64,000 nt of DNA. Origin: Laetmonice hystrix. Taxonomy: Eukaryota. The position numbers and the translations under genes are program-made. The stretch covers positions 10,108,001 through 10,172,000 of the forward strand of contig OZ249436.1 in NCBI GenBank assembly GCA_965235115.1, written 5' to 3'. This document shows, piece by piece, positions 524 to 55,290 of the stretch. Each line of letters starts with the position of its first letter. Position 1 is the stretch's first letter. The notes under the pieces were generated by a model, which saw only the letters and a program-made list of their open reading frames with translations, did no database searches and was not told where the DNA came from.

Positions 524-730
524 TTTCAGAACGTTGATGATCAGACTTCGTGCGGTTCTCTCTTTTTCTCGCTGTTTTCTCCCCGATGCAGTCCGACTAT
601 AGACGATTATAGTAGGCGTACTTTCGCTTTCCTACTCCAACAGAAAGTCGTCCTCATCCAGTAAGGTACAAGCGGACGGTAATCAAAGGTCGCCACCCAC
701 GGTCTGAGTGTCGGCGGTTACAGGTTATTT

Positions 731-22495: not shown

Positions 22496-23092
22496 CTTGT
22501 TATCGTATACCACTGGGATGCCTATACTTTGTTATCGTATACACTGGAATATCTACTTTGTTATCGTATACACTGGAATATCTACTTTGTTATCGTATAC
22601 ACTGGAATGCCTACTTTGTTATCGTATACACTGAAATATCTACTTTGTTATCGTATACACTGGAATGCCTACTTTGTTATCGTATACACTGGAAGGCCTA
22701 CTTTGTTATCGTATACACTGGAATGCCTACTTTGTTATCGTATACACTGGAATATCTACTTTGTTATCGTATACACTGGAATGCCTACTTTGTTATCGTA
22801 TACACTGGAATGCCTATACTTTGTTATCGTATACACTGGAATATCTACTTTGTTATCGTATACACTGGAATGCCTACTTTGTTATCGTATACACTGGAAT
22901 GCCTACTTTGTTATCGTACACACTGGAATGCCTACTTTGTTATCGTATACACTGGAATGCCTACTTTGTTATCGTATACACTGGAATGCCTACTTTGTTA
23001 TCGTACACACTGGAATACCTACTTTGTTATCGTACACACTGGAATATCTACTTTGTTATCGTACACACTGGAATGCCTACTTTGTTATCGTA
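22496..23092. repeat. 29-bp minisatellite, ~20 copies
   Basis: Unit ttgttatcgtatacactggaatgcctact with atat/atgc variants. Confidence 0.97.
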
Positions 23093-23860
23093 TGCCTCCA
23101 GTAATTGCTCCAGTAGTCCAGCCGCTCTAAGCAAAGTTTTCTATCGCCCGAATCTATTTATGTCAGCATACATTAAGATGGAACGGTTTAACGTCACTGA
23201 AACGTATCGTAACACGTACTTCCGTAAAGGACGCCGCCCACGCATACCTATTATAATCCGGTAGGAGGTTTATATTTCAGCACCTCTTGTTACCCACCAT
23301 AATGTTTTATAATAGACTCTGATTAATCATTATGAAGTCTTGCAATCACTTCTACAAAACGAAGTAAGTAATAAGTAGTAAGCTAGTCCGAGATTTTGTC
23401 ACATATTCTAAATATCACCCGCAAATTTCTATAATGCCTTTGAGAGACACACTGACGTTTGACCTTTGTAAGACGTATTGCTTGTCAAAATGCGACAATT
23501 ACGACACATAATATTGTCATATTATAGATACTTAAATGTGGTCTAAAGCTAAATGACAATCGATGTCGATTGACTACCATGGCTCCTTTGGGTCTACCAT
23601 TCAATGGCGGATAGATTTTCCAGCCGAACACTAAGTCATGAGGCGCCAGGGGAAGGAAGTGTAATGGATGTGTTTGGGCGCCAAGATGACCACCTCCTAA
23701 ATTACCTAGATCTACTCATTCGAGCTCGAATCGTCTTGCAGCATACAGCCGAATGGGTGATAAATTCGGCAGCGCCCTCGCCGACTCTAGTCGATTCTAG
23801 CTCTGTTCTTCGTTCATAATATGGACCGAGAAGAATGGGTGAGCTATTTGTCACCGGAGC

Positions 23861-26028
23861 CTTCCATACACAACTTATTGAGATGTTTCCAACTCAACAA
23901 ACACTGACCCTAATCCTTACTTCCATATACTACTTATTGAGATGTTTCCACCTCAATAAACACTGACCCTAATCCTTACTTCCATACACTACTTATTGAG
24001 ATGTTTCCACCTCAATAAACACTGACCCTAATCCTTACTTCCATATACTACTTATTGAGATGTTTCCACCGCAATAAATACTGACCCTAATCCTTACTTC
24101 CATATACTACTTATTGAGATGTTTCCACCTCAACAAACACTGACCCTAATCCTTACTTCCATACACTACTTATTGAGATGTTTCCACCTCAATAAACACT
24201 GACCCTAATCCTTACTCCCATACACTACTTATTGAGATGTTTCCACCTCAATAAATACTGACCCTAATCCTTACTTTCATATACTACTTATTGAGATGTT
24301 TCCACCTCAATAAATCCTGACCCTAATCCTTACTTCCATATACTACTTATTGAGATGTTTCCACCTCAATAAATCCTGACCCTAATCCTTACTTCCATAC
24401 ACTACTTATTGAGATGTTTCCACCTCAATAAACACTGACCCTAATCCTTACTCCCATACACTACTTATTGAGATGTTTCCACCTCAATAAATCCTGACCC
24501 TAATCATTACTTCCATATACTACTTATTGAGATGTTTCCACCTCAATAAATACTGACCCTAATCCTTACTTCCATACACTACTTATTGAGATGTTTCCAC
24601 CTCAATAAATACTGACCCTAATCCTTACTTCCATACACTACTTATTGAGATGTTTCCACCTCAACAAACACTGACCCTAATCCTTACTTCCATACACTAC
24701 TTATTGAGATGTTTCCACCTCAATAAATACTGACCCTAATCCTTACTTCCATACACAACTTATTGAGATGTGTCCACCTCAATAAACACTGACCCTAATC
24801 CTTACTTCCATATACTACTTATTGAGATGTTTCCACCTCAACAAACACTGACCCTAATTCTTACTTCCATACACTACTTATTGAGATGTTTCCACCTCAA
24901 TAAACACTGACCCTAATCCTTACTTCCATATACTACTTATTGAGATGTTTCCACCTCAATAAACACTGACCCTAATCCTTACTTCCATATACTACTTATT
25001 GAGATGTTTCCACCTCAATAAACACTGACCCTAATCCTTACTTCCATATACTACTTATTGAGATGTTTCCACCTCAATAAACACTGACCCTAATCCTTAC
25101 TTACATATACTACTTATTGAGATGTTTCCACCTCAATAAACACTGACCCTAATCCTTACTCCCATGCACTACTTATTGAGATGTTTCCACCTCAATAAAT
25201 ACTGACCCTAATCCTTACTCCCATACACTACTTATTGAGATGTTTCCACCTCAATAAATACTGACCCTAATCCTTACTTCCATACACTACTTATTGAGAT
25301 GTTTCCACCTCAATAAATACTGACCCTAATCCTTACTTCCATACACTACTTATTGAGATGTTTCCACCTCAACAAACACTGACCCTAATCCTTACTTCCA
25401 TACACTACTTATTGAGATGTTTCCACCTCAATAAATACTGACCCTAATCCTTACTTCCATACACAACTTATTGAGATGTGTCCACCTCAATAAACACTGA
25501 CCCTAATCCTTACTTCCATATACTACTTATTGAGATGTTTCCACCTCAACAAACACTGACCCTAATTCTTACTTCCATACACTACTTATTGAGATGTTTC
25601 CACCTCAATAAACACTGACCCTAATCCTTACTTCCATATACTACTTATTGAGATGTTTCCACCTCAATAAACACTGACCCTAATCCTTACTTCCATATAC
25701 TACTTATTGAGATGTTTCCACCTCAATAAACACTGACCCTAATCCTTACTTCCATATACTACTTATTGAGATGTTTCCACCTCAATAAACACTGACCCTA
25801 ATCCTTACTTACATATACTACTTATTGAGATGTTTCCACCTCAATAAACACTGACCCTAATCCTTACTCCCATGCACTACTTATTGAGATGTTTCCACCT
25901 CAATAAATACTGACCCTAATCCTTACTCCCATACACTACTTATTGAGATGTTTCCACCTCAATAAATACTGACCCTAATCCTTACTTCCATATACTACTT
26001 ATTGAGATGTTTCCACCTCAATAAATAC
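23861..26028. repeat. 59-bp tandem array, ~37 copies
   Basis: Unit cttccatatactacttattgagatgtttccacctcaataaacactgaccctaatcctta. Confidence 0.98.
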
Positions 26029-27499
26029 TTTGTAAACACTGCTGAAAGAAAGAACGAAAGATACAAAGAAGAACTCAGGCGTTCCAACTATTAATCCCTT
26101 CATGCTTCAGAGAAAAATGTCTCAAGCAAATCGCATGAAAATGATTCACATCTAGTTGATTTGTTCCTTTAATGGGTAAATTATTCCATGGATTTAAATT
26201 TGTATTACCTCCGTTTAATAATGAACAGGAGCATATAAGCAAATAAGAAACGCAAAGAAGCAATGAGAGAGTTTAATGCAGCATTCAAAGACCATGATGT
26301 ATAGAATATCTATTATTTTACAAAGACACACAAAAGATAAAGGAAACGGCTTTACGCATGAACATATTCAATGTACGTTACTCGTGTAGTGATGATTCTT
26401 TATAAGCTGGAAGTAACGCGGAAATAGCTTGTAGGATCTTCTAAAGCCAGTTGAATCTGAAACGTCTTTTTTGACACCCTGTAGAGATTATGCACTTTGT
26501 AATCCTAGAAACATGAGCATTCAAAGTAATCCCTGAAATCGCCACAACCATCTGCTCGGATAACTGGAATCCTATCAAGTCATTGTCTTGGACTGCGCAG
26601 ATTTTTTATTTTTTTTGGCGGGAAACGGCTTTTTCCTTCTGGGCCGGAGGGCGTGAACCCCAGCCGTGCCGATCGAAGCGGGACCTCTGGTACTAGCTCG
26701 TGTCAATACATTTAGGGGGTTAATCCACTTTTACCGGTTTATCGGCGTTTCCCTGGACCATCCATAATGGGGATTTTGTCGCTCGGCACAAATGGAGCCA
26801 TGCCGATCACGCACTACGTCTGACCACAGCCGAACATTGACCGTCTGCGTTATAATGGTGCCTCGGGTGTATAGGGTTGTCCGATGCATTTGTTGGTGGA
26901 AGTTCCCCCAGAGCGCGCCGATTTCTGAGGTCCTTGAAGTGTGCGGCCAGGCTGTGACCCGCATGTGCCGATCGACGTCTATTATTTCCCGCCGTGTATG
27001 GCCGTGGGGCCGGAGAACCCGCGAGTCGTACGGCACGGTCGGCTCACGTTTGATTGAAGTCAGAATGTTGGGTGAGAGACCACAACCCCAGGCACCGCGG
27101 TGACCCGCTTGTCGACTTGAGTGGAAATATTCCGCCATGCTCCCAAAGGCAATGGGTCCACTGGCCGTTGTGGTGGCTATGTATGCGGGTAACTGATGAA
27201 GAACAAGGCTTGTCGCCACCCAGGGTCAGTATGGAGGCGGGCCGGAATGTTCTACATATTGGCCCTGTCCCCCTCCGGGCCAGTGGTTCAGGGTCGGCCC
27301 AGTATCGGCTCAGTGCACTCAACTGATTTCTTAACACATATCTTTTTCGCTGAATCAGTCAGAAGCTGAAATTAGGCTGAGACCATCGACTACCAACCCC
27401 AAATTGTGAAAACTTTTAAATATTATATTATCCTTTGGTTGCTTTGCGATCGGTCCACCTTTTTAGTCTGGGGAGAAATGGGGAAAGAAGCCCCACCTA

Positions 27500-29156: not shown

Positions 29157-32100
29157 TTAACAAGAACATTGATATTAATATTTCAGCATTATCCTAAAGC
29201 TTACTTTTATCATGCTAGAATAATATTAACTGTATTGAATCTGTCCCGGTAAAGAAAGGGTGAACTGCTCTGGCTCTAACGTGACAAGAAAACCTTGTAG
29301 TGCATCAAGGTAAACCAAGGGTAATCATGACTTTATCAACACGTGTCTTTACAAAACATATTAAGCGTGCATGTATGTGCATTCAAAGTGCGATTTTGAT
29401 TGTTGAGAGCGACTTAATTTGTATAACCAGCCAGTATGTAATTGGTTGTAGAGCAGCCAGGCATTCCCGGGCATGAGTCGGGTAGAACTTGATTTGGTCA
29501 TCGAAGGAAAATGTCACGTTCGGCTCGTTGATAGATCGTTCTTTCCGTCTCGATCGATGTACAATGGAGATGTATTGTGTAAGCACCAAAGACGGAACAC
29601 AAGAACAAGGCTGGTATCATTATTTCAGCGTATGGAATCATTTGAAACAGGATGTTACATACTGGAGGTTTTATGACGGACACAATGGTTGCTATTAGAT
29701 ACTGAAATGATAATGGTGTAGCTAACACTAGGCACCGTCCTCGAAGATTAAAACGGGACAGCGTAGAGACGCAGCGACAAACGTTCACTGTGATAATCAG
29801 TAATTTTTTGAATGGATATTAATAGAGCTAGATTCGCGAATATTCGGGATGAAACTTTCCAAGAGCTTGGGAAGTATTTTATCATTCAGTATGTAAATCA
29901 ATGCCGAGAAATTATTCAGCTTCGCCTAGCTTTCTTGAGCTCATTTAACTTGACTTTGACATTATCAGCAATCAAATGAGCAAACAAATGACACAAACAA
30001 AAAACATAACACACATCAAATGTGCTCTACTTATTTTATTATAGTACGGCTATAGTGAGGCTTCAATATGTATTTTTGCATAGCTATTTGAGGCTTAGTA
30101 AGGCTTCAATATCTATTTTTGCATAGCTATTTGGTTGGATGTAATAAGAAATTAAATTGAACTTAATTATCTTTAATTTTTAAATGTCGACAGATGGATA
30201 GACACTAAAATGAAAGGCAGGTATATAATTATGCAAACGCCATTGACAACAGACTAGCATATACTTCTCGACTATCTGAATTGGTTTTGGATAACGTATT
30301 TGATCTTCGGACACCATATTTAATCCTGGTAATAGATTCGAACACCTTATTTAATCCCGGTAATCGTTTTTGGACAGCATATTTGATCCTAGGTGTGTAA
30401 CTATGATCTCAACATCAGGGCCTCAAGGTAATCAAAACACAAATATTGAAAGGTTAGAAATAACATTAAGAAAGATTCTTTTTATCATAGCACACAACCT
30501 GTACAACTTTTGAGAACCTTCTTAACGAAAATAATATTTGAATATTATCAAATAAACCCCGATGAGCGAGGGCATGCAGCCTAAATAAACGTAGGAAGCT
30601 TAGAGGCTTTGCAAACATCTCTTTAAGAGCATAGTTAATGTATGGAAACCTGATCAATGCATTAGTGACATTGGCACATGAATATGTTATGTTCTAGGAG
30701 TAGGCCTATATAATACCAAGATTACGTATTGATGTTAACATGCAGTGCACAACTTCTATGAAACTGTACAGCTTATCTATTCAACTGCAGTAAAAGCTGC
30801 ACTGTCCTTTATCGAATATGAACAAATGCAAAAACCAAAAACATTGTAATGCTGTCGGTTTTAGTTACATTAAATTTAATATCAACCTATCTGTTGTTTT
30901 TAGAATTATCCAGTATAAAGACAAAGAGTACCTTGTCATCGCATGATATCACAGGTCAAACGTTGCAAAATGTGAAACGGTCAAATGAAATTCGTAGAGT
31001 TCTCCGATACTTTCTCAGCAAAAAGTTTAGAAAGCTTCTTGCTGGGGAGGTTGGGCTCAGTTAACATTCTCAATAATTCGGTAATTCTCTCTAGTCAAAC
31101 ACTCAACTTTACAGTCAGATCTCATTAATCAGTGGATCTTTACTACGTATTTCCCTTGAATTCTTTGCCTACATCTCCTGAATCTCTGAGTTCACAGCAG
31201 ACATAGTTTGCTGGTACCACGTGCCCTCTGATATGGGACTAATTACTCGGAGTACCCATCACATCAAACTGATTCTGTAGCGGGCTACAGTGGGCTTCCA
31301 TTTGGAGATTTGGTAGATTTTAGTAGAGAATAGTGCCGAAGGACACTCTGGGTTGTGTCAGGGGGGAAGCCAGCCCCACTGGGGCTTGCCCCAGAAAATT
31401 TCACACGTGCATACCATAGTGCTATGAAGTCTGAAAGAGGAATGGAAATAGGCCTATAGACTTGCTACATGTTTCCACCACGGACAAACGGATCTCAAGG
31501 TGGAATTTCTCTCTGTAATATTCTCTGACTGTCCGATCCTGCTTATGGAAATAGATTTCTATAGCAAACTGATACGGTCGGGGAGTTCTATACATATATT
31601 CGATCGAAAGTTATACTCCTGTTAAGTTGATATTCCAAGTATAACAAATCGTGACTGAGACAAACGGACTCCTGCGGCTATGGACAGATAGAGACCCGTC
31701 TTACTGCACAAACGTCGCTCTCCTCTCTGAAAGGAATTATCTTTCGAGACAGATAAACCCAGCGTGGCTGTAAAATGTCTTTCGCGATTCATATTTTTTC
31801 TGTGGCTTTTAGTAGATTTTGCCTCAACTTTGAGGTCGGATTTCAGTAAAGCATAGCTCCCCTGAAGTGGCCGTTTGGTGCGGGGTTCGGCTGATAGCTG
31901 ATATATTATCTACGTGATTGCACAGCCTGACAGGCAGATTCCAAGGTCGATGGGCTTCTGATAGCAACAGCCAGACACCACTGAGCTCTTAAAGCCCACC
32001 TCCCTCCTCGCCCTCCTGGGTGGAGGGAGGAACGGGTCAGTTACAGAAGCCGACAGGTAAGTAACAGTATCAGCGCTCCGATAAGGCGGGCAAGGGCGGT

Positions 32101-32499
32101 GTGACGTGTATGGGCGGTAGACAAGGCCGTCGGCCCTATCACAGCCCAGGCTGTCAATTGAGGGACCGACGTTAGTGTCGGATTCGATCAAACATGATTA
32201 CGACTTCATTGGCGCTGCGGCACCTTTGTATGGGGAAACTTTGTGTTGACATCGCGCGGCTCCGTGCCTCAGTAAATGAAGAGCTGAAGGCCAACTTACG
32301 TTGGTAAACGCTGACCGTAAACCGATTCACAGATCGTTTACAAATACTTAAGGATGTTCTAATGCCTGAAGACGCTACGTTTGTGGACAAGTCGAACGTT
32401 TATTTACATACAGAAGGGCATTAAGGTGACTGAGTGAGGTAATGGGAGGTGTTACGTCTTGTCGGCAGTCTATTCATGGTGGTATGAACCATTTAATTC

Positions 32500-32640
32500 C
32501 TGCCATAAAAGAAACCTACCACCGGGAGGTAATTCCCTACTCTTTTCTAAAATGGCAAGGGCTCTTATTATGTCCAGTCGCACAGACACGGCTGGACATA
32601 CCAAAGTATTTGATGACCCAGTTGCGGAACACTGGGGATT
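32500..32640 (-). mobile_element. SINE core fragment, same family as 16210-16470
   Basis: ccaccgggaggtaattccctactcttttctaaaatggcaagggctctt..acagacacgg is the reverse complement of ~16328-16403. Confidence 0.65.
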
Positions 32641-35174
32641 ATGAAAAAGATACCTTGTTTCGTGTAATAAAAAAAGGTGGACGAATGTATGAGTAATGTT
32701 TAGGAGGCAGGTGAAAAGGTGCCTGTTGAGTAATTACAAGTAATTACATATAACTTGAAGATTGAAGCCTGAGCGGAATCCACTGCTACATGCTGCACCA
32801 TTCAGTATACAGTTAGACAAGTCAACCCTCTCGGACAGTTCTCCCTGGCGCCTAGGGAGCTGACCGCAAGAACAGTCTACGTTACAATGACAGAAGTAGT
32901 GGCAGGTTGACTACTCTTTATGCAGGCAGAACTCGGACACCTTATTGTTGTTGAATGGGTGACACATATTTATTAACATTAAAACAACAGGATGTAAATA
33001 TTCAGAAAGTGAGCCCACGCTGCACTGACTGACAATGATATAGAAGATAAGATTGAAATGTGTCACCACCCAGGGTGAGCCCTCACTGCACCATCCGGGT
33101 TAAGAAGAGAATGTAAAAATTAAATATGATTCAAAAAGAAGAAGATATATGTTATGTAAGGATAATAATAAATATTGTGACGATAGTTTCTCCTGGACAG
33201 TGAGCCCACACTGCACTGCCTGGAAGGGTTGTTATAAGTTTGAGGAGACTGGGTGTAATAATGAACAAAGTTGTTGTAAGTGGTATAGATTCTGAATTAT
33301 GTGTCTGTCAAAAAGGGGTAGTAGGTGGCGACAGTGCCACGAAGAACTGGAATATGGTAGGAGGAAGATGGGGAGGCGGCGGGATTGAAAAATTCGTGGA
33401 TGTCCGACTGAAGACGTAATGGCGACGAGACGCATGTGGGAAGATGACCTTGACCCCCAACTGTACATGACGTCACGTGGACCCCTGGCGGAGGCAGAGG
33501 AAATTTGAGTTATCCGGAGAAGTGGCGCCCCTTGCGGCTTAGATAGGAATTGCCGAGTTCTCCTGCATAAAACTCGTCGAGCCTGCGGCTCCAACGTTCC
33601 TTTATGCAGGCAGAACTCGGACACCTTATTGTTGTTGAATGGGTGACACATATTTATTAACATTAAAACAACAGGATGTAAATATTCAGAAAGTGAGCCC
33701 ACGCTGCACTGACTGACAATGATATAGAAGATAAGATTGAAATGTGTCACCACCCAGGGTGAGCCCTCACTGCACCATCCGGGTTAAGAAGAGAATGTAA
33801 AAATTAAATATGATTCAAAAAGAAGAAGATATATGTTATGTAAGGATAATAATAAATATTGTGACGATAGTTTCTCCTGGACAGTGAGCCCACACTGCAC
33901 TGCCTGGAAGGGTTGTTATAAGTTTGAGGAGACTGGGTGTAATAATGAACAAAGTTGTTGTAAGTGGTATAGATTCTGAATTATGTGTCTGTCAAAAAGG
34001 GGTAGTAGGTGGCGACAGTGCCACCAACCTGCCAGTTGGCAGGTGGAGCCACCAAAAGAAAAAAGGAAACTGACGACTCGACACACTGGCAAGATGAGTC
34101 AAATTGACATGTTTTCTGGGCTTAAGAGGACCCGAGCTGATCCTCATCGAATGTCACACCAAATCCAAAGGTTGACGATTGAAGGTGCCGAATCCAGTCC
34201 GCAGAAAGAATGATACCTCTCACATACAGTGAAACAGATATCGGTGTAATGAGCAAATCTTAAAAAAGGAGGGAAAGCCCTCGTCCACTCCCATCCGGTC
34301 GAGGTTTCCAGGATCCCGATGAGGGTTCAATATAATTAAAGTGTAAACCACCAGTGGTTTAAATGACTTTAACTGTGAGGAGCGGGCTCCACGGAGAGCC
34401 TGTGTGTTAAAAATCCCTGTGGAATGGCTGCCAAAATGAAACATCGGAAGCGTCGAAACCAGTTGAGAGTTGACTTGATTTCTTGTTGAGATGAAGCACT
34501 GAATCCAAACCATCGTCTCCCGATGACTTGTCCCACTCAATCAAAATTAACAGGATAAAGGATTAACCGTACGTAATCATAACAAGGATTGAGGATGATG
34601 GTTAAGATTAAAGTAAATGATAAACATTGTACCATGAACCGTAAGAAGACCTGGTCAGTAAAGTATGACTTGTAAGTCATTCTCAAGAAGGTGAGGTTGA
34701 AACTCAGCTGTAGGAATTCGACGGAAGATACCAATAAATAAATCAGGGAGACAAACATTCAGATGAACTTCCCAACTACAGTCAATGCACGGACACATAC
34801 TAAACAACCCACTCGCTAGATAAAGGAAAATACACCAAACGATGGCGAGAACCATCGGCGAGACGGGTAGTCACTGCCAACACTTGCCAAGTGAATGATA
34901 AATCGCACCAAAAGGTGCAACGTCCCAACCACACGGAGCAAGGCACGGCAGATAAATAAAGTACCACTCGCTAAGAAAAAGAAAGTGGACCAAACATTGG
35001 CACAAATTCAATCACATGGGGCGAGACGGTACAGTGCAACTTTGCTAAGTGAATGAGAAATCGCACCCAAAAGCGAACGTCCCACCACAGGGGCAAAGCA
35101 CGCACACCTAACAGTGCAACACTTGCTAAGTGAACTAGACCCGTTGCGGTGATAACCACAATGGATCCCATCCC

Positions 35175-36182
35175 CTGGGGGGTCCTGTCTACCATGTTCT
35201 GATTTAGTAGAGAGAGCTACGGCTATTCAAAATGATGGTGTCAAATGAAAGAGCATATATATATTGCTTCCTGTTAGTGTTAGTGTTTAATAGTAGGTAT
35301 AGCTCTAACTTCAACCATTTACAAGTTATAGCCCTAAGAAAAAATAAGAAAATATGGGTGATGTCATTATGACCCGATAGGTCACGTGACCTGAAAAATA
35401 ATGGTGCCAAATGAAAGAGTGCATATGACTTCCTATTAGTCTTTACTAGTAACTATGGCTCTAACTTCAACCATTTTGCAAGGTATAGCCCTAATAAATT
35501 ATGGATGACATTGTTATGACGTCATAGGTCACGTGACCTAAAAAATAATGGTAACAAATGAAAGAGCATATATGACTTCCTATTAGAGTTTAATAGTAAC
35601 TATGACTCTAACTTCAACCATTTGCAAGTTATAGGTATGAGAAAATATTGATGACATCGTTATGACGTCATAGGTCACCTGGGGGGTCCTGTCTACCATG
35701 TTCTGATTTAGTAGAGAGAGCTACGGCTATTCAAAATGATGGTGTCAAATGAAAGAGCATATATATATTGCTTCCTGTTAGTGTTAGTGTTTAATAGTAG
35801 GTATAGCTCTAACTTCAACCATTTACAAGTTATAGCCCTAAGAAAAAATAAGAAAATATGGGTGATGTCATTATGACCCGATAGGTCACGTGACCTGAAA
35901 AATAATGGTGCCAAATGAAAGAGTGCATATGACTTCCTATTAGTCTTTACTAGTAACTATGGCTCTAACTTCAACCATTTTGCAAGGTATAGCCCTAATA
36001 AATTATGGATGACATTGTTATGACGTCATAGGTCACGTGACCTAAAAAATAATGGTAACAAATGAAAGAGCATATATGACTTCCTATTAGAGTTTAATAG
36101 TAACTATGACTCTAACTTCAACCATTTGCAAGTTATAGGTATGAGAAAATATTGATGACATCGTTATGACGTCATAGGTCAC
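35175..36182. repeat. 504-bp tandem duplication
   Basis: ctggggggtcctgtctaccatg recurs at +504; identical track ORFs 35204..35410 and 35708..35914. Confidence 0.95.
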
Positions 36183-37376
36183 GTGACCTGAAAAGCAATG
36201 GTGCCAAGTGAAGAACATGACTTCCTAGGTGTCTTCAATAGTAACTCTGACTCTTAACTTCAACCATTTACAAGTGATAGCCATGAGAAAATATGGATGA
36301 CATCTTTATGACGTCATAAGTCACGTGACCTGAAAAATAATGGTGCAAAATGAAAGAGCATATATGACTTCCTATTCGTGTTCAATAGTAAGTATGGCTC
36401 TAACTTCAACCATTTACAAGTTATACCCCTGAGAAAATATGGATGACATCGTTATGACGTCATAGGTCACGTGACCTGAAAAATAATGGTGTCAAATGAA
36501 AGAGCATATATGACTTCCTATTCGTGTTCAATAGTAACTATGACCCTATCTGGCACCGTTTACAAGTTATAGCCCTGAGAAAATATGGATGATATCGTTA
36601 TGACGTCATAGGTCACGTGACCTAAAAAATAATGGTGTCAAATGAAAGAGCATATATGACTTCCTATTCGTGTTCAATAGTAACTATGACCCTATCTGGC
36701 ACCGTTAACAAGTTATAGCCCTGAGAAAATATGGATGACATCATTATGACGTCATAGGTCACGTGACCTGAAAAATAATGGTCCCAAATGAAAGAGCATA
36801 TATGACTTCCTATTCGTGTTCAATAGTAACTATGGCCCTAACTGGCATTGTTCAGAAGATATAGCTATAGATAGCTAAACTGGCCACTGTTGAAAACTTC
36901 AGGGTCACGTGATTCATCGAATATAGGTCAAATCGCTTATCTTTGGATGATTCTATTAAAACCCTTGTTAGAGAGTGTTCCTGTCCAATATTATCAAATT
37001 TTACCAAAAAATTAAGAAGAAGAAGGGATTTAACCGATTTGTGACCTAGGACCCAGTTCTCCCTAAGGTCAAAGGTCAAAGGTCAAATGAAGGGTCAGTT
37101 TTAGGCTAGACCCTTGCCTGATCATAACGCCATGATATATCTTGGAAATACCAAATATGTACTTTGAAAATGGCCCTCAATATCCCACACACGTTTGACG
37201 TCATGACGTCATGACGTGACGTCACGTGACGTCATGACTGATTGTGTGACCTGACTTTGTCATGGTCAAGATCTCTGCCAAGTTTGATTGAGATATCTTG
37301 AAAAATGACTGAGATAGAGGTACTGTTTACAACTACAACTACAACTACTACTACTACTACTACTACAACGCAAAAA

Positions 37377-38461
37377 ACTAGACACGTTGTGGTGATACCA
37401 CAATGGATCCCATCCCCTGGGTGTCCCGTCTGATATGTTCATAGTATAGTTAACTATCATGTATGACTTCCGATTCGTATTAGATAGAAACTGGGGCTGT
37501 ATCTTGCATGGCTCACGGCTCATACACCTTAGAAGATTCCAATGATGTCATGATGACGTCATAGGTCACGTGACCTGAAAAATGATGGTATCAAATGAAA
37601 GAGCATATTATGACTTCCTATTAGTGTTCAATAGTAACTATGGCTCTATCTCCAACCATTTACAAGTGATAGCCCTGAGAAAGTATGGTTGACATCATTA
37701 TGACGTCATAGGTCACGTGACCTGAAAAATAATGGTGTCAAGTGAAAGAGCATATATGACTTCCTATTAGTGTTTAATAGTAACTATGGCTCTAACTTCA
37801 ACCATTTACAAGTTATAGTTGGAGAAAATATTGATGACATCGTTATGACGTCATATGTCACGTGACCTGAAAAATATTGGTGTCAAATGAAAGAGCATAT
37901 ATGACTTCCTATTCGTGTTCAATAGTAACCATGACCCTATATGGCACCGTTTACGAGTTATCGCCGTAGATACCTAAACTGTTCAAAACTTTATGGTCAC
38001 GTGATTCAGCGAAAATAGGTCAAATCGCTTATCCGTGGAAATTTCTGGTGAAGCTCTTGTTAGAGAGTCTTTCTGTGCAATATTGTCAAATTTGACCAAA
38101 AAATGAAGAAGGAGAAGCGATTTAACCGATTTGTGACTTAGGACCCAATTCTCCCTAAGGTCAAAGGTCAAAGGCCAAATAAAGGGTCACGTTTAGGCAA
38201 GACCCTTGCCTGATTATAATGACGTGATAGGGTTTTGAAATACCCAATGTGAACTTTAAAAATGGCCCCAATGTCCAAAATACGTTTGACCTCATGACGT
38301 CATGACGTGACGTCATGACGTGACGTCATGACGTGACGTCATGAATGATTATCTGAGCTGACTTTATCATGGTCAAGATGTGTGCCAAGTTTGATCGAGA
38401 TATCTTGAAAAATGACTGAGATAGAGGTACTGTTTACTCCTACTACTACTACTACGCAAAA

Positions 38462-38498
<37 letters not shown>

Positions 38499-38553
38499 GG
38501 GAAGACGAAACCACACAATTTCTAGATCCCATCCCCTGGATAGGGGATGGGAT
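37377..38553 (+). mobile_element. Second copy of the same Helentron/HINE-like family nested in the 3' tail of the first
   Basis: New actagacac..gatcccatcccctgg start at 37377; two consecutive 3' hairpin tails ending at ~38553 and ~38619. Confidence 0.75.
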
Positions 38554-38759
38554 AATAATAATAGGGAAGACGAAACCACACAATTTCTAGATCCCATCCC
38601 CTGGATAGGGGATGGGATAATGAGAAACCGCACCCAAAGGTGCAACGTCCCCACCACATGGTGCAAGGCACGCACACCGAATAACGTGCAACCTTAAATA
38701 AGTGAATCTGAGGAAATATAAGTAATGAATAATGACCTTCATAAAAGTAGTAGTAATTT

Positions 38760-39409
38760 TAGGTATAGTAATAATGGATAATAACGATAGAAATATAATT
38801 GTCCAAGGATTGAAATATATGATGAGTCAAAATATAAAACTGTGGTTCCGAAAGAACAATACATATCATGATACCCACGAATAGAGAAGTAAAGATATAA
38901 GAAACTAATAATGATGACACGATCCCGTGATCCAATCACTAAAGCAGTATCTTACATGAGTTGATACGACATAAAACCTGTGAACCCACCAGGACCATAA
39001 TACATTATAATGGGTAAATATAGATAAGTAAATATATTATAATAATCAATAATGACGATAGAAATTCAATTGTCCAAGCAGTACCAGTGAACCAATAACC
39101 TATAACCTAACCAATAACCTATCATTATGTCCCAGTACGAGGAATTAACGATAATAATAATAATAATAATAATAATAACCACTAACCAGTCTCTCAGGTG
39201 ACCAAATGATTCCACTTAGAAAACTGGGAACCCATCAAGACCATAACACATTATGATGGGTAAATATAGATAAGTAGATATATTATAATAATCAATAATA
39301 TTTAACGATAGAAATTGACTTGTCCAAGGAGTACAGTGAACCAATAACCTATAATCTAACCAACAACCTATCCTGATGTCCCAGTATTGGGAAGTAAAGA
39401 TAGAATAAT

Positions 39410-39464
<55 letters not shown>

Positions 39465-40340
39465 GCACGGATCCCTTGATCCAACCACTAAACCAGTCCC
39501 TCGGGTGATCAAATGATTCCTCCTAGAACTGGGAACCCATCGACACCATAACACATTATGATGGGTAAATAGAAAAGTAAAAAAATAATCAATAATCATA
39601 CTAGAAATATGACTTGTCCAACCAGTACCAGTGAAGGAGTGTACTGTGTTTCAACAGAACAATAACATATCGTGATGTCCCAGTATCGGAAAGTAAAGAT
39701 ATCAGAAAATAATAATAAGGGCACGGATCCATTGATCCAACCACTAAACCAGGCTCTCAGGTGATCAAATGATTCCGAATAGAAAATCGTGAACCCATCA
39801 GGACTATAACACATTATGATGGTAAATATAGAAAAGTAAATATCCTATAATAATCGATAATAACGGTAGAAAAATCACTTGTCCAAGCAGTAGAAGGCAG
39901 TGACCCAGTACCATAAGATGAGTCAAAATATATAAAACTGTGTTTCCGACTGAACAATAACCTATCATGATGTAGCATTATAGAAAAGTAAAGATATAAG
40001 AAAAATAATAATAACGGCACGGATCCATTGATCCGACCAGTAAACCAGTCCCTCAGGTGAGACAAAATATAGTCAGATTAAAAGTGTAACCCGACCGTAT
40101 CATAACAGATTATAATGGTTACAAATATATATGAGAATAAATAATAATTATAAATTCAACTGATCCAACCATTAAAGATCAGTGGAGTACAAGGTGAGTT
40201 AAAATATGAAAAACTGTGAAATCAACAGGACAATAATATATATTGTAAGTATCAATATTAATTAAATGCACTGATCCAACCACTGAAGCAGCGAATAAAA
40301 TCTCGATAAACTAGGAGGTAATCCAATGTGAACCCGGAGG
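38760..40340. repeat. Degenerate ~255-295-bp tandem repeat with (AAT)n tracts
   Basis: ggcacggatcc.ttgatccaaccactaaaccag recurs at ~38915, 39463, 39720, 40016, 40268. Confidence 0.75.
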
Positions 40341-43300
40341 GATAAACTAACTATGCTGGCGATAATTCGAGAAGTAAGTTAGATATGAATATGATGAGTC
40401 AAATCTATAAAATTGAGACCCCATGGAACAATACCCTACCGTCATATGATAGAATCGGAACTTAAATGTTTTAATAATAAATAAAAATAAATGTACAAAC
40501 CCATCAGTGCAACCATGAAACACTACTGCCAACAAATATAAGCTGCTTTCAATTTAAAGATTTTTGGTGGAGTTGTCCAGTAACAACCTATATACAATGG
40601 ACTCTTGATTGTCTGCCGGAATTCTGGTTGACCAGCACTGTACCAATGGCTGGAACATCCTTTGGCTCTTCTTCTTCTTCCTACGCTCCTGGTCTTGGTT
40701 TGTTTGTGTGGCTTGTTTAGGTCAAAGGAGGATGACGGTACGCACTTCCCGGCAAACTGGAGTAGCGTGCCTTGGTTCGGCATGGTTTTTCCATGCAGGC
40801 CTACACCTACTGTGAAATTTGGGACTACACATTGAATAGGACGAAGATTATGCCACCTATCATCCACTCGTAGAGAGTCGAACAATCAAGGGTCAGCTGT
40901 ACCAAGCCCAAATTTGAGGTTATCAAGTGGACAACCGTGCCAGAAAGGCAGGGTTGTACGACCACACTTTATGTTGTCTCGTACCACCGGACAACCACTT
41001 ACTTTGAATGCTGAAAGGAATCAAATATATTATAATAACAGAATAATGTATCAATCCACCGGTTCCAAACCGAACCAGCGCATACATAGGTCAATCAAAT
41101 TAAGTAGAAGAAATTGCAAAACCACTAAACAACAAGATCAGATAATATCACTATCTGGGGTTAAAGAATAAATATATTATAATACTCCATGATGATGATA
41201 AAATTTGACTGGTCCTAGACTGAACCATTGGATTAGATATAACAGGGGAGAGCTACATTAATCAGGAGTTAATAAGGATGAATGCCAGAGTTGAAACATT
41301 TATAAACACTGAACAGACAGCGGGAAACAAAGTCAAAGATAAATGATAAATTATGACTGTAATATAATGTATAATTATAACGTCCCTAAAGAGATACCGA
41401 ATTAACTAATATAGTATGGGATAGTAAGTAGAGATGTAGCCTACAACAGTTACCATTTAATTTAGTATTATAGATTATAAGGAGGAATTCAAGCCCCCTG
41501 TACCCGGCTTAAACAAAAGAATGTTAGAATGGAAACATTTTAAATATTAAAATTACAGAGAGACAAACGTCGGAGAACGTACTTAGATCATAGTATATTA
41601 TTATATTAAGCTATATTATACTATTTATAGTGTAAAGTTCTATGACATTTCAATTTGACTAAAATGCTGAAAAAATATAGGCCTACTACCAATGAACCGA
41701 AAGCGATGCAGAGTCCTAGCGTAACGTAGGCTATGCTGGACCTCCCGTGGAACGTAAGAGGACTACTAAACAGCTAGCCTGCCTAGTACTCGTTCCAACA
41801 CTGACTGGACTAGTAATACAGACATCCAAACCACGGCACAGGACATGGATGAAGTGGACATTGAATCGACATAAATTAGGTCACAAGTGACAAGTAATGA
41901 TGCCGGATTTAACCTAATAACAGTAGGCCTTTTATCAGACTCTATCCTACTTAACTTATCGTCGACGAGACATCTTCCCCTTGACATGCGGGCGACTCCC
42001 AGTCGGGACGCAGACGCGCACGTGTCCAGATTCAAGGACGACGGGTGCCCTACAAAACTCTTGAGAGGGAATGGCCTCAAACTCAGGCCCGGCCTGGGTC
42101 GTCAAAGAATCCCGATCGTCACGAAACCATGGGATGACCAAAAGAACACGTCCAGCAAAACCAGTGATAAACGTCCCATGACGTAGCCAACATGACAAGG
42201 AAGGCGCGAGGCAGAATCAACGCTGCATGCCAAATTGAAAAATTCGTGGATGTCCGACTGAAGACGTAATGGCGACGAGACGCATGTGGGAAGATGACCT
42301 TGACCCCCAACTGTACATGACGTCACGTGGACCCCTGGCGGAGGCAGAGGAAATTTGAGTTATCCGGAGAAGTGGCGCCCCTTGCGGCTTAGATAGGAAT
42401 TGCCGAGTTCTCCTGCATAAAACTCGTCGAGCCTGCGGCTCCAACGTTCCTTTTTGACAAGTTGTCCCTTATTTTCCCGTTTTCACTCACCAATTCAAGC
42501 TAAACGCACTTACCCACAAGATCACACGTTGATTTAGGTTGTTCTTCAAATACTATATCTACAGGCTTTTGTATCTCAGTGTCTAAAACTAGCGGTATCC
42601 GCAATTCCGGAAGTGTTCTTCCTGCCTGGCGCGCTATACGAGTGTTTCGGTCGCTTCCACGAATGAGACATTCCCTTTAACATGGTGACCGAAATGTTCT
42701 CCAGTCGGATCGGAGACGTGACATGATGGACATCCTGTGTGGTCAGGCCTTTAGTGTTCCGGTGCCAACTCTTACATTTACCACCCCGCTACTGGCCCTT
42801 GCCCACTATCTAAGTACATGTATACACATTTGAACACTATAGACACGAGAATTATGCATGGCCCAGTCTCTTTGAAAGTGGAAGGTATAGTGTTGAGCTA
42901 TTTAGCTAGACAGCATGTTGAGCTATTTAGCTAAATACAGCAGACTTCCTATAGACAATTTTATGTCGATTTAAATGACTTTTGGAGTTTTATGACATAT
43001 ACAGGATCTGCAGTTCCGTTTTAAGACGCACTCCTTAACCATGCAATGGGACAACCGACCATTTGAAGAGGACATAACCCCGTGTGTTTATAAGTAGCAG
43101 ATTGCGTATTTACCAGGGTAGGTCGAAACCGCCCAAATAAACTACTGTCACACCCACCGTTATACCATAAAAGCCAACCAAAGGGCCTTGAATAAACATA
43201 CGCATGACGGGTATACTGTCATTGAAGGGCTATACACCGTTCAAAGTCCATTACCATAATCTTTATAACCGTTGTAAATAGATGGCCCTATTCCCGCAGT

Positions 43301-44329
43301 GAGCACCATAGACGGAGAATCTCCGCCAAGCCTATGGTTACAGGTTGTACCAATTGATGAATGACCTACTAAAACAGAGCCCTTGTTTCTGGAAATGGAC
43401 CTCATTATACCCCCAAAAAATCGGGCAGGAGTAGCGGTTTATGTTTGTTATTAGTCTTTATGCATGCATACCATAAATAATGTAAACAGTGGTTAGGGGA
43501 TAGTGCTTGCCTGTAACAGGCAGGGCAGCGACGTGTGTGTCAGAAAAGGGTTAAATCCTCCACCAACCCTTTATATCACATTCAAGTTTCAGCACTGGCG
43601 GTAGTCTGCGCCAGGTCATACCGCTGTCAGGGCGTATACTCCTCTCTGAAACAGTGCAGGGGTAAGAACGTCTAATATAGAAAGAGCACCCTTTGATCAT
43701 CTACCCCTTGGGAAACGAGTAAAAATGATCCTCGAGTACATAATAGATCTAGTATTAGTATGCCTGGGTGTTCGTAAAAGGCGACAAATGGGGAGATGGT
43801 TTGTGTGGGGAAGTGATCAAGTGTCGACTCGGAGAACACAGATCTTTACAATGTTTCTCACTGGCTTCCCTCACTGCTCCGCAACTGGGTCAACACTTCG
43901 GTATGTCCAGCTGTGTTTGTGCAAACTTTCCATTAAAAAAAAAGAGTGGGGGATTGTCTCCCGTTGGCAGGTTTCATTCGCACTGCATCGTTACTTTGCT
44001 CACCTACTTTGGCCGCAGTCCGTAATCCGGCAAACTGCGTGGTAGCGAGCTATAGCTAGACCTAACTCAGACGATATAGCGTGTTCACACAGAAATAGCT
44101 AGTATACCGATATGTCGGCTGCTAGCCGATATGTGTAATCTAATATCCAATTAGATGTATATATTTCCGAGTGTCCGAGCCACTTCTGCATGAGCTGCGG
44201 GCTTGTGTTGGTCACCTGACCACCTCAGCGGCCTTCGCGATCAAGTAACTGACATGGGTGGGCGTCGTTGTGATTCCTGTGGTCAGCGCCACAGCTTCGC
44301 TGCCAGGATATCGCCTGTGTCTGAACGCT

Positions 44330-44500
44330 AGGCGCCATCACGGGTCAGCGAAAGATCGCTACATAGACAGGACCAGTAATCTGGTCTATCCTGTCTGAGC
44401 AAATGGCATTTTATAAGCCCAGTCTCACAGACACGGCTTGAATGCCACACTGAAGTCTTTGATGACCCAGGCACATGTTCAGCACAGGAGGACCAGTGAA
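44330..44500 (-). mobile_element. SINE core fragment (third copy)
   Basis: ccagtctcacagacacggct..tttgatgacccag matches 32575-32621. Confidence 0.5.
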
Positions 44501-45948: not shown

Positions 45949-47187
45949 GGATTCTGATTGTATCCCTCCCACCGACCACGGATTCTGATTGTATCCATCC
46001 CACCGACCGCGGATTCTGATTGTATCCCTCCCACCGACCGCGGCCACCGATTGTATTCCTCCCACCGACCACGGATTCTGATTGTATCCCTCCCACCGAC
46101 CACGGATTCTGATTGTATCCCTCCCACCGACCGCGGCCACCGATTGTATCCCTCCCACCGACCACGGATTCTGATTGTATCCCTCCCACCGACCACGGAT
46201 TCTGATTGTATCCCTCCCACCGACCGGGGCCACCGATTGTATCCCTCCCACCTACCACGGATTCTGATTGTATCCCTCCCACCGACCGCGGCCACCGATT
46301 GTATCCCTCCCACCGACCACGGATTCTGATTGTATCCCTCCCACCGACCACGGATTCTGATTGTATCCCTCCCACCGACCACGGATTCTGATTGTATCCC
46401 TCCCACCGACCACGGATTCTGATTGTATCCCCCCCCGACCGGGGCCACCGATTGTATCCCTCCCACCTACCACGGATTCTGATTGTATCCCTCCCACCGA
46501 CCGCGGATTCTGATTGTATCCCTCCCACCGACCACGGATTCTGATTGTATCCCTCCCACCGACCGGGGCCACCGATTGTATCCCTCCCACCTACCACGGA
46601 TTCTGATTGTATCCCTCCCACCGACCGCGGATTCTGATTGTATCCCTCCCACCGACCACGGATTCTGATTGTATCCCTCCCACCGACCACGGACTTTGAT
46701 TGTATCCCTCCCACCGACCACGGATTCTGATTGTATCCCTCCCACCGACCGGGGCCACCGATTGTATCCCTCCCACCGACCACGGATTCTGATTGTATCC
46801 CTCCCACCGACCACGGATTCTGATTGTATCCCTCCCACCGACCACGGATTCTGATTGTATCCCTCCCACCTACCACGGATTCTGATTGTATCCCTCCCAC
46901 CGACCACGGATTCTGATTGTATCCCTCACACCGACCATGGATTCTGATTGTATGCCTCCCACCGACCGCGGCCACCGATTGTATGCCTCCCACCGACCGC
47001 GGCCACCGATTGTATCCCTCCCACCGACCGGGGCCACCGATTGTATCCCTCCCACCGACCACGGATTCTGATTGTATCCCTCCCACCGACCGTGGATTCT
47101 GATTGTATCCCTCCCACCGACCGCGGATTCTGATTGTATCCATCCCACCGACCGCGGCCACCGATTGTATCCCTCCCACCGACCGCG
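45949..47187. repeat. 31-bp minisatellite, ~40 copies, two interspersed variants
   Basis: ggattctgattgtatccctcccaccgaccac and ggccaccgattgtatccctcccaccgacc. Confidence 0.98.
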
Positions 47188-53146: not shown

Positions 53147-54857
53147 TTAACGTTGGATGAGGCCCTATTCCAGATATTCTTCCAAGTGACAGGATTATAT
53201 CTCAGCGCTATAGTTTTGAGGAATGCGAGCTTGGTGAAAGCAATGGCTGCAATACGTTACGGCCATAGCGTTGATCTGAGTATAGATCTAGGTCTACAAT
53301 TCATTAATGAACTGTCTGACTCCAGCGTGAACAGAATCTGCCGTTTTACAAACTACTGTCACATGTCTCTTACCGTAACGTTGTGTTCCTGGAATTAACT
53401 AGAAAGAACTGAAGAAACAAGGGAAGAAATTAAGAAAGCGCATCGTAGACGGGCTAAAACGCATTTCACAGTATAGCTGGAGATACATTATATATTTAAT
53501 TAACAGGTTTATAAATATAGACTGATTAATTAAAAGATTATGTCATTTTCCGTTGACGCGTAAAGCATGATAAGCATAAATTATATTTTCCCTCCGCGCC
53601 GGCGAAGCAATTACCATAGAGGAACTTTGTTTTAATTGCTTTATCAAGTTTTTTTTAAAAGGAATCTAATGTCTTTTTCGGAACGATACAGAACAAGGGA
53701 TAGTATAACACATGCAAATGATACTCAATGAATGAGAAATTTAATATCTCAATAATGAAATAAACTAATACGACCTATTTAACGGAATATCTCGAAATAT
53801 CCTCCTCGCGATCTGAAAACGTCATCAATAAAACTGAAAAGGTCACATGTTGTCCGTTAAACGCCTCATGGTCCCAGCAAACGGTTACTATGGCAACAAT
53901 TTGTCAAATATTAGCATCCTGTCAGAAATAGGACCTAGCTATAATGGCGATTGTCACTTTAATAAGTGGGCTGACAAATCAATACACCGTACAAATGATT
54001 TTACTTTTGTGGGGAAACCTTTTTACGGTGTACCAAGTGTTTCTACAGATAAGATTTCTTGAAGATTGTCATGCAGATAACAATGAATACACGTGGCCTT
54101 GGACGTAATCTTCCTGCATTGCTCAATCAAATATAAATGTTTACTTTTCGCCGTCCCTTTCTGTCGGCGATTTAGTCCTGAGTTTAAAAAAAGCACTTTA
54201 AACGTCGCTTGTTTTTAACTGTTGTCAGATTAATCTAAAAATGTACCTTCTCAACAGAAAATAAATAGTGCTCTCCAATAATCCACATCTATCACAATAG
54301 TGCATGCGACACCTTTGTTATTAACAACAACGTGAAATTAACCATTAACTTATAGGGCAATTAAAGCGCTATAAATGCAGGGGTGTCGGGGCAGGGGGGC
54401 CATGTTGCCCCCCCCCATACCTAGACCCACCCCTGCAAAGGCACAGGCTAACCAGAGATGGACGGCTCCTGGCTTCAGCCCCCCCCCCCCCCAAATAGCT
54501 TCCGACACCCCCGTTATAAGATAGCTATATTAAACTGGCTATCGAACCCCCAACAGTCCGATTATAAGGGGTACATGCTAGCATTACGCTACGGTGCACG
54601 CTGCCGAATTGGCCGCCCGCATATATTAAAATTGCGGGCAAAACGCGCGCGCGCATGCGCCAAGGTGACCACCTTCGCATCCTGCACGGATGAGAGGAGC
54701 CATATTATTATTATGTTTTTAATTATTGTTATTTTTTTATGCATTATTATATTTTCTGATTTTTAACAATTGCCGCCTGATCTGAATGCCTTTAATTACC
54801 AACCATCACCTTAACAACCGTCCGCATCTTCAAGGATTGGTAATAATCAGAAAGTCA

Positions 54858-55290
54858 TCTTCTCAACTGCTTACGGTAAATCTTCTCAATTGCTTACGGT
54901 AAATCTTCTCCATTGCTTACGGTAAATCTTCTCCATTGCTTACGGTAAATCTCCTCCATTCCTTACGGTAAATCTTCCCATTGCTTACGGTAAATCTTCT
55001 CCATTGCTTACGGTAAATCTTCTCCATTGTTTACGGTAAATCTTCCCCATTGCTTACGGTAAATCTTCTCCATTGCTTACGGTAAATCTTTTCCATTGCT
55101 TACGGTAAATCTTCTCCATTGCTGACGGTAAATCTTACCCATTGCTTACGGTAAATCTTACCCATTGTTTACGGTAAATCTTCCCCATTGTTTACGGTAA
55201 ATCTTCGCCATTGTTTACGGTAAATCTTCCCCATTGCTTACGGTAAATCTTCGCCATTGCTTACGGTAAACCTTCTCCATTGCTTACGGT
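54858..55290. repeat. 23-bp minisatellite, ~19 copies
   Basis: Unit tcttctccattgcttacggtaaa. Confidence 0.97.

What the first reader, a model, noticed from the sequence alone, without database searches (positions are those of the whole stretch)
32916..42453. 9.5-kb non-coding element with Ngaro/PAT-type split direct repeats
Seen: two repeat pairs, identical by eye (220 bp and 425 bp), in minus-strand order A1-body-B1-A2-(43-bp spacer)-B2, with A1 and A2 8850 bp apart. Established: this layout characterises Ngaro/PAT-like tyrosine-recombinase retrotransposons, where the B1/A2 junction templates a circular intermediate. Seen: no gag, RT/RNase H or recombinase motif that I can recognise in the ~8-kb body. 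Inference: a large, recently inserted non-autonomous element mobilised in trans, which homology-based annotation would miss.
Basis: partly seen in the sequence, partly recalled or inferred. Interest (0 to 1): 0.75.

Follow-up and report, generated by a model that had tools for sequence, protein, structure and literature searches.

The report
Gene-less split-repeat retroelement family
This is one young copy of a repeated, gene-less mobile element with the split end-repeats of tyrosine-recombinase retrotransposons, likely moved by enzymes made elsewhere in this invertebrate genome; 3.5 kb of its 9.5 kb is a second element nested inside it, and the kind is already known from algae.

Summary
B (425 bp) and A (220 bp) are exact pairs in minus-strand order A1-body-B1-A2-43 bp-B2, and one CTTT core sits at both ends and at the B1/A2 junction. 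Short-read contigs of one sample show a family of roughly 35-50 copies per diploid genome with B:spacer depth 1.7-2.6, a second insertion flank, and a majority form that differs from this copy although this copy's own pairs are identical. No gag, RT or recombinase remnant was found in six frames. Corrections: 3,486 bp is a nested Helentron-type (HINE) insertion, so the native element is 6,052 bp; the circular intermediate is a model, not established. Addition: the junction folds into a 19-bp stem with a 29-nt loop (z -7.4), like the DIRS1 ITR-plus-extension junction. Verdict: a likely non-autonomous DIRS-order element; Ngaro versus PAT, the partner and the empty site remain untested. Precedents: TOC1, Ectocarpus Ngaro-N1 and PAT-N1. 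This scan noted similar elements four times before, once in this genome.

The parts
32916..42453 (-). Whole split-direct-repeat element as it lies in the window (9538 bp; 6052 bp without the nested HINE)
42234..42453 (-). A1, 220 bp, 53% GC, CpG-rich; CRE/E-box at 42318-42329 (candidate promoter, inferred); inner arm of the inverted repeat at 42403-42421; terminal core at 42450-42453
40241..42233 (-). Unique 5' body, non-coding; holds a possible old MITE-like fossil at about 40549-41010 (inferred)
38707..40240 (.). Degenerate AT-rich tandem repeats of about 250-300 bp (about 70% alike) with AAT microsatellites
35135..38620 (-). Nested Helentron-associated element (HINE-type): 11-bp subTIR plus inverted repeat at the 5' end (38591-38618, duplicated at 38526-38553), microsatellites, 146-bp central repeats, two 3' ends with subTIR and stem-loop (37377 and 35135), exact 505-bp internal tandem duplication 35174-36182; splits one ~160-bp body repeat at a TT on the minus strand
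   Evidence: anatomy as in PMC7492417 and PMC4067079
34025..35134 (-). 3' body, non-coding; ~160-bp degenerate repeats at 34766-35134 that continue at 38621-38706; two short hairpins at the B1 edge (34008-34048)
33600..34024 (-). B1, 425 bp, identical to B2; AATAAA (minus) at 33653-33658
33553..33620 (.). B1/A2 junction hairpin: 19-bp stem (33553-33571 with 33601-33620, one bulged base), 29-nt loop, CTTT core at 33600-33603 on the loop side of the stem
33384..33603 (-). A2, 220 bp, identical to A1; CRE/E-box at 33468-33479
33341..33383 (-). 43-bp spacer between A2 and B2, one per element
32916..33340 (-). B2, 425 bp; AATAAA (minus) at 32969-32974, 53 nt inside the outer end; terminal arm 32917-32936; three short internal sub-repeats; terminal core 32916-32919

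Best explanation
This is a young copy of a multi-copy, gene-less element with split direct repeats, likely a non-autonomous DIRS-order (Ngaro/PAT-type) retrotransposon that would be copied and inserted by the reverse transcriptase and tyrosine recombinase of an autonomous partner elsewhere in the genome. Shown: the layout, the shared CTTT core, identical end pairs, the family, a second flank, the lack of coding, the nested HINE, the junction hairpin as a computed fold. Inferred mechanism: a minus-strand transcript starts inside A1 (CRE/E-box promoter), reads through B1, A2 and the spacer and ends after the AATAAA in B2, so it lacks both outer ends; the partner's RT makes a single-stranded cDNA; the missing ends are copied from the internal B1/A2 junction, which makes A1=A2 and B1=B2 at every jump; the closed junction recombines through CTTT with a genomic CTTT (or TTT), so the core appears at both ends and there is no true target duplication. 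The 19-bp inverted repeat around the core is the likely recombinase recognition signal.
For: Layout and core; same order as published. Family-wide layout: B:spacer depth 2.01, 1.68, 2.27, 2.62 in 4 of 4 runs; spacer depth 21.5-29 times the unique flank in the 3 runs that cover the flank. Second flank abutting 32916 in run X2 (2 contigs, table 7). End homogenisation: this copy's pairs are identical over 641 positions, while the majority contigs differ from it at 6 listed substitutions and 3 indels in B and at 10 letters plus 6 gap letters over 33384-33615 (X4 record 31). No coding: 0 relevant hits in 73 ORFs and 12 read-through frames (Pfam), 0 hits in 12 frames (PHROGs). Junction stem -24.8 kcal/mol, z -7.4, 0 of 300 shuffles, best of 295 windows outside the HINE; it parallels the DIRS1 design of ITR plus a 26-48 nt extension and NTT ends (PMC3266345). 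DIRS-1 RT acts in trans on a truncated construct (PMC7192593). Precedents of the same size and with internal tandem repeats.
Against: No partner was found; no genome was available to search. The empty site was not among the 24 of 461 loose ends shown. A:spacer depth is 3.03, 1.46, 1.56 and 1.09, so run X4 does not show the expected 2:1; contig depths are rough and GC-sensitive. All four runs are one sample, perhaps the source of the assembly. Orientation is not shown: the plus strand also begins and ends with NTT and carries the extension at its 3' end as DIRS1 does. The AATAAA in B1 would have to be read through. In DIRS-1 no circle junction could be amplified.
Confidence: 0.8

Rival explanations
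1. The locus is a head-to-tail pair of two non-autonomous Crypton-like DNA elements, a short one (32916-33603) and a long one (33600-42453), joined through their shared 4-bp core by a tyrosine recombinase without any RNA step.
For: Cryptons have 4-6 bp terminal direct repeats and non-autonomous derivatives in animals (PMC3212892, passages); both units start with B and end with A and share CTTT; nothing here shows reverse transcription; A:spacer is near 1 in run X4.
Against: Cryptons lack long direct repeats. The A-to-B junction is present in the majority form at spacer depth (X4 record 31, 48.7 versus 44.8) and B:spacer is about 2 in 4 of 4 runs, so the pair is the family's normal form. Identical A and B pairs in a copy that differs from the majority form are hard to explain for two independent units.
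Confidence: 0.08
2. The element is a decayed, formerly autonomous Ngaro/PAT copy lineage whose ORFs were deleted or replaced, and it no longer moves; the copies are leftovers.
For: Native length 6052 bp is close to autonomous Ngaro elements (about 6 kb in Cafeteria, PMC8547959); a nested HINE has had time to insert. An origin from an autonomous element is likely in any case.
Against: End pairs have 0 differences in 641 positions (upper 95% bound 0.47%), yet the body keeps no trace of RT or recombinase: the body was non-coding before the last jump. The 5' body is held by the same runs (share of words 0.75-0.77 for 40300-43600 in 3 of 4 runs), but its copy number was not measured.
Confidence: 0.07
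3. The arrangement is a local duplication or an assembly artefact at one locus.
For: Two other exact tandem duplications lie inside the stretch (505 bp at 35174, 70 bp at 38487); no contig spans the whole element and no long reads were laid.
Against: Short-read contigs give the A1/body, B1/body, spacer and A2/B1 junctions independently, at many-fold depth for spacer, A and B, and a different flank at the B end.
Confidence: 0.03

Closest known systems
Ngaro-N1_Ec32 and PAT-N1_Ec32 of the brown alga Ectocarpus (PMC12477816, supplementary file 1 rows 71 and 76)
   Same: Non-autonomous, A-int-BAB split repeats, no target duplication, internal tandem repeats, large (7756 and 9475 bp)
   Different: Algal host; Ngaro-N1 has a named partner by B-repeat similarity (~90%) and PAT-N1 keeps a pol fragment; here no partner or fragment was found, and a HINE is nested inside
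TOC1 of Chlamydomonas reinhardtii (PMC9940879 passage; TOC elements bounded by split direct repeats, PMC3266345 passage)
   Same: Non-autonomous DIRS-order retrotransposon with split direct repeats
   Different: Green alga; copy-number variation among strains is reported for TOC1, mobility is only inferred here
Autonomous Ngaro and PAT-like retrotransposons of animals (e.g. Xenopus DIRS-53_XT, PMC9210276; amphioxus Ngaro-like element, PMC2632668)
   Same: A1-internal-B1-A2-B2 with 100% identical pairs of similar size (236 and 152 bp in DIRS-53_XT)
   Different: They encode gag, RT/RNase H and recombinase; this element encodes none
DIRS1-like retrotransposons (PMC3266345; PMC7192593)
   Same: Junction built from an inverted repeat plus a one-sided extension (29 nt here; mostly 26-48 nt in the rows seen) and an NTT-type core at both ends
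   Different: DIRS1 has long inverted terminal repeats and a short inverse-complementary ICR; here the inverted part is only 19 bp and the internal copies are direct
HINE / DINE-1 non-autonomous Helentrons, e.g. Cg_HINE of Crassostrea gigas (PMC7492417, PMC4067079) - for the nested part only
   Same: 5' subTIR and IR, microsatellite, 140-180 bp central repeats, 3' subTIR and stem-loop, TT target
   Different: Here a dimer with two 3' ends and a duplicated 5' end; no sequence comparison with named families was possible

Membership tests
DIRS order, split-direct-repeat type (Ngaro, PAT-like, VIPER) | A1-internal-B1-A2-B2 with A1=A2 and B1=B2 | tested here: met
   definition seen
DIRS order, split-direct-repeat type (Ngaro, PAT-like, VIPER) | Short core shared by both ends and the internal junction; no target-site duplication | tested here: inconclusive
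   CTTT at all three places and a second flank ending exactly at 32916; the empty site was not seen among 24 of 461 loose ends shown
DIRS order, split-direct-repeat type (Ngaro, PAT-like, VIPER) | Dispersed copies with the same layout | tested here: met
   spacer 21.5-29 times flank depth, B:spacer 1.7-2.6, second flank; depths are rough, A:spacer 1.1-3.0
Autonomous Ngaro or PAT-like element | gag, RT/RNase H and tyrosine recombinase ORFs | tested here: not met
Non-autonomous DIRS-order element | An autonomous partner with the same ends that encodes RT and recombinase | not testable with these tools
   no genome held; pattern scans of metagenome and viral contigs gave 3 chance hits and 0 hits
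Ngaro versus PAT-like | RT/recombinase phylogeny and presence of the methyltransferase domain | not testable with these tools
   no protein to test; both groups share the repeat layout
DIRS order (mechanism) | RNA and cDNA intermediates | not testable with these tools
   only contig runs were available
DIRS1-like | Long inverted terminal repeats and an inverse-complementary ICR | tested here: not met
   inverted part is 19 bp, internal copies are direct
Crypton | 4-6 bp terminal direct repeats | tested here: met
   CTTT at both ends; definition
Crypton | No long direct repeats | tested here: not met
   220- and 425-bp exact pairs
HINE (nested part 35135-38620) | subTIR + IR + microsatellite at 5', central tandem repeats, subTIR + stem-loop at 3', TT target | tested here: met
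   against the descriptions

The most novel reading that the evidence does not exclude
The junction hairpin (19-bp stem with one bulged base, 29-nt loop, core at the loop edge) is a folded single-stranded recombination site: the partner recombinase integrates the single-stranded cDNA directly, as integron integrases do with folded attC sites (analogy recalled, from no call), without a double-stranded circle. This would fit the single-stranded, mostly linear DIRS-1 cDNA, and would show that split-repeat elements keep a miniature DIRS1-type ITR-plus-extension signal; gene-less 6-9 kb carriers of that signal would be a widespread, unannotated class in invertebrates.
Probability: 0.12. Interest if true: 0.75.

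Novelty: new member of a known kind. Interest (0 to 1): 0.38.

Why it matters
Homology-based annotation misses such elements, and a family of tens of young copies is a source of multi-kilobase insertion polymorphism that can also carry other elements. I found descriptions of large non-autonomous split-repeat elements only for algae (searches; Repbase, Dfam and most subscription papers were not searchable), so an animal family is a modest extension. Its practical value is as a stripped-down substrate: a gene-less element shows which cis signals are enough (A promoter, B end, junction hairpin), and the steps after cDNA synthesis in DIRS-order elements are still untested for split-repeat types.

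Tried and rejected
Whole-genome search: no genome held. Metagenome pattern scan for the junction arm: 3 loci, each matching only the 19-22 bp pattern, taken as chance. Viral-contig scan for the hairpin: 0. Rfam: 0 at gathering over the window, 0 at E<=1 over 32800-35200, so no hammerhead or other known RNA. Coding remnants: Pfam on 73 ORFs and 12 read-through frames gave only weak unrelated matches (best E 0.0077); PHROGs 0 of 12. Longest open frames in three unique segments were reached by 70, 17 and 74 of 500 shuffles. The most open frame (40526-41020, minus) gave 3 weak hits among 1.84 billion proteins: two repetitive proteins and one unnamed ORF without Pfam match (P0123) that aligns in two blocks and two frames, read as DNA-level likeness to another repeat; the ESM Atlas gave no usable hit. 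No RNA holder listed. The window's LINE at 56352-59171 is not a candidate partner (APE plus RT, no recombinase). The 3' end of B alone does not fold better than shuffles (z 0.77), so no self-priming hairpin there. Penelope-type pseudo-LTR was rejected because it gives one partial tandem repeat, not two split pairs with a shared core. Fewer differences near the junction than in the rest of A (at most 1 of the 10 other letters of X4 record 31 lies in 33553-33615) is only suggestive, since 40 of 179 rows were shown. Look-ups of earlier findings by sequence, relatives and near place returned nothing.
Full report
Observation. The two pairs are real and exact: B at 32916-33340 and 33600-34024 (425 bp), A at 33384-33603 and 42234-42453 (220 bp), with a 43-bp spacer at 33341-33383 and an A1-A2 offset of 8850 bp. 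On the minus strand the order is A1, body, B1, A2, spacer, B2. B1 and A2 overlap by CTTT at 33600-33603, and the same four bases form both outer ends. Published descriptions give A1-internal-B1-A2-B2 for Ngaro, PAT-like and VIPER elements (PMC9210276, PMC8969392, PMC6681497; passages seen). The host is an animal, likely a lophotrochozoan: a SIFamide-receptor-like exon has its best hit in a scallop at 61% and a LINE has one named hit in an annelid at 57%. No genome was held.

The body. It is 8209 bp, but 35135-38620 (3486 bp) is a separate element. On the minus strand it starts with an 11-bp subterminal repeat and its inverted copy, then microsatellites, 146-bp tandem repeats, the subterminal repeat again and a stem-loop, in a TT context; it has two 3' ends (37377, 35135) and a duplicated 5' end. 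This is the anatomy described for HINE/DINE-1 non-autonomous Helentrons (PMC7492417, PMC4067079; passages). It interrupts one unit of a ~160-bp body repeat, whose halves resume at 38621 (70 of 87 columns match the neighbouring unit). The element proper is therefore 6052 bp. Whether the HINE inserted after this copy landed or travelled with it is not known. The rest of the body is unique sequence and degenerate 250-300 bp repeats, A-rich on the plus strand.

Coding. The longest open frame in the body is 120 aa. Pfam gave no relevant match for 73 ORFs (66 of at least 38 aa from the non-HINE parts, plus 7 others) or for 12 frames read through with X at stops; PHROGs gave 0 of 12. The longest frames of three unique segments were reached by 70, 17 and 74 of 500 shuffles. 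The most open frame gave 3 weak hits among 1.84 billion proteins; the only non-repetitive one is an unnamed ORF without Pfam family that aligns in two frames, which I read as DNA-level likeness to another repeat. A direct tblastn with Ngaro or PAT proteins could not be run, so very decayed remnants are not excluded.

Family. Four contig runs of one sample hold the DNA; they were laid on 31000-33615, which has the left flank, B2, spacer and A2. The unique flank lies at depth 29.7, 58.4 and 62.9 in X1-X3 and is not covered in X4. The spacer lies at 639, 1691, 1421 and 44.8, that is 21.5-29 times the flank, or about 35-50 copies per diploid genome by the single-allele depth at a heterozygous deletion. 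B at 33150 is 2.01, 1.68, 2.27 and 2.62 times the spacer, as expected for two B per spacer. A is 3.03, 1.46, 1.56 and 1.09 times the spacer by its major contig, so X4 does not fit the expected 2. The tool warns that summed contig depth is no copy number, so these are rough. Loose ends reproduce the A1/body and B1/body junctions of the window, and two X2 contigs join B's outer end at 32916 to a different flank. Only 24 of 461 loose ends, 40 of 179 letter differences and 32 of 1957 pieces were shown; the empty site is not among them, which proves nothing either way. All runs are one sample and may be the source of the assembly.

End homogenisation. The majority contigs differ from this copy at 6 listed substitutions and 3 indels in B, and one X4 contig over 33384-33615 has 10 other letters and 6 gap letters. 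Letters of the window's type make up about a quarter to a third of depth at four positions checked, so this copy belongs to a minor subfamily. Yet its A pair and its B pair are identical over 641 positions (upper 95% bound on divergence 0.47%). The simplest reading is that both ends are rebuilt from one internal template at each jump, and that this jump was recent. This is inference; gene conversion or assembly polishing could contribute.

Junction signal. The B1/A2 junction folds into a 19-bp stem (33553-33571 with 33601-33620, one bulged base) around a 29-nt loop: -24.8 kcal/mol as DNA, z -7.4, 0 of 300 shuffles, and the most stable of 295 windows outside the HINE; as RNA z is -6.3 and -7.1 on the two strands. 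In the integrated element this is a terminal arm at the B end and the inverted arm 29 bp inside the A end. DIRS1-like elements have the same design at larger scale: inverted termini, a one-sided extension (mostly 26-48 nt in the table rows seen) and an NTT trinucleotide at both ends and at the junction (PMC3266345, passages). This links the element to the DIRS order independently of the split layout. It also leaves orientation open: DIRS1 has NTT and the extension at the 3' end of the sense strand, which here is the plus strand, whereas the Ngaro/PAT convention, the AATAAA 53 nt inside B's outer end and the CRE/E-box in A favour the minus strand. Depth and loose ends suggest that other families share only the ~55 bp around the junction.

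Mechanism. Inferred, by analogy with the DIRS model (PMC7192593, PMC3266345; passages): a transcript from inside A1 to inside B2, reverse transcription in trans, repair of both ends on the internal junction, and recombinase insertion through the core. For DIRS-1 the internal junction region is experimentally required and RT acts in trans, but the cDNA is single-stranded and mostly linear and the circle junction could not be amplified. Rivals are a tandem of two Crypton-like DNA units (0.08; Cryptons have 4-6 bp repeats but no long ones, PMC3212892, passages), dead remnants of a decayed autonomous element (0.07) and a local artefact (0.03).

Known kinds. Non-autonomous split-repeat elements are in print: TOC1 (PMC9940879, passage), and Ngaro-N1_Ec32 (7756 bp) and PAT-N1_Ec32 (9475 bp) with internal tandem repeats in Ectocarpus (PMC12477816, passages and supplementary file 1 rows); SIRE is the A2-B2 part of VIPER; solo AB repeats occur in Cafeteria (PMC8547959, passages). 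Autonomous Ngaro elements are described in Xenopus and amphioxus (PMC2632668 passages) and fungi (PMC3783388, passages). The preprint 10.1101/2022.05.23.493040 (passages) added nothing on this kind; bioRxiv supplements were closed and were not needed. I found no paper on a large non-autonomous animal family, nor on a junction hairpin or single-stranded integration in split-repeat elements, but Repbase, Dfam and most subscription papers, including the original Ngaro description, were not searchable. The attC analogy is recalled and comes from no call. Earlier notes of this scan report four similar gene-less elements, one of 8.1 kb in the same genome (e1-7880516), and hairpins in tails of related elements; none was checked here, and a look-up by sequence did not link them to this family.

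Verdict. A real, young, multi-copy, gene-less split-repeat element that works most likely like TOC1 or Ngaro-N1; membership of Ngaro or PAT cannot be decided without the partner. New member of a known kind; interest 0.38. The boldest reading not excluded is that the junction hairpin is a folded single-stranded recombination site (probability 0.12, interest 0.75 if true).

Noticed in passing
window 56352-59171 (+): LINE with endonuclease and RT in frameshifted ORFs; relatives at 55-66% identity, one named hit from the annelid Ridgeia piscesae at 57%.
   Followed up: partly
window 83-631 (-): First coding part of a SIFamide-receptor-like GPCR; best hit scallop, 61%. With the LINE hit this suggests a lophotrochozoan host; the element lies about 32 kb upstream of it.
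   Followed up: partly
window 32916-32975 and 33552-33615: Depth is higher near the junction than in the rest of A and B, and contigs match only the junction-near part and then diverge (X4 loose end at 33557, X3 at 33612, joints 32965-32974 to 33191-33196): other families probably share the junction signal; the partner may be among them.
   Followed up: no
window 33265-33601 (records 7, 13, 22): A contig at single-copy depth, about 87% alike, holds B end, spacer and A, then about 207 letters that do not lay; possibly an old solo unit left by A1/A2 recombination, like the solo AB repeats of Cafeteria or SIRE. Its letters were not shown.
   Followed up: no
window 40549-41010: GC-richer island with loosely inverted ends, matched in two blocks by an unnamed predicted ORF (P0123): possibly an old MITE-like insertion in the body.
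   Followed up: partly
window 32508-32638: Very high-copy short repeat in the left flank (summed depth up to about 40,000), also matched at 16291-16402, 43869-43922 and 44419-44470.
   Followed up: no
window 32643-32692: 50-bp stretch missing on the other haplotype in runs X1-X3; used to estimate single-allele depth.
   Followed up: yes
window 10993-11077 and 11454-11540: Fragments 72-81% alike to the 146-bp HINE repeat unit, without the subTIR.
   Followed up: partly
window 22497-23093, 23861-26029, 45949-47184, 54857-55291, 61800-62351: Minisatellite arrays of 29, 59, 31, 23 and 50 bp.
   Followed up: no
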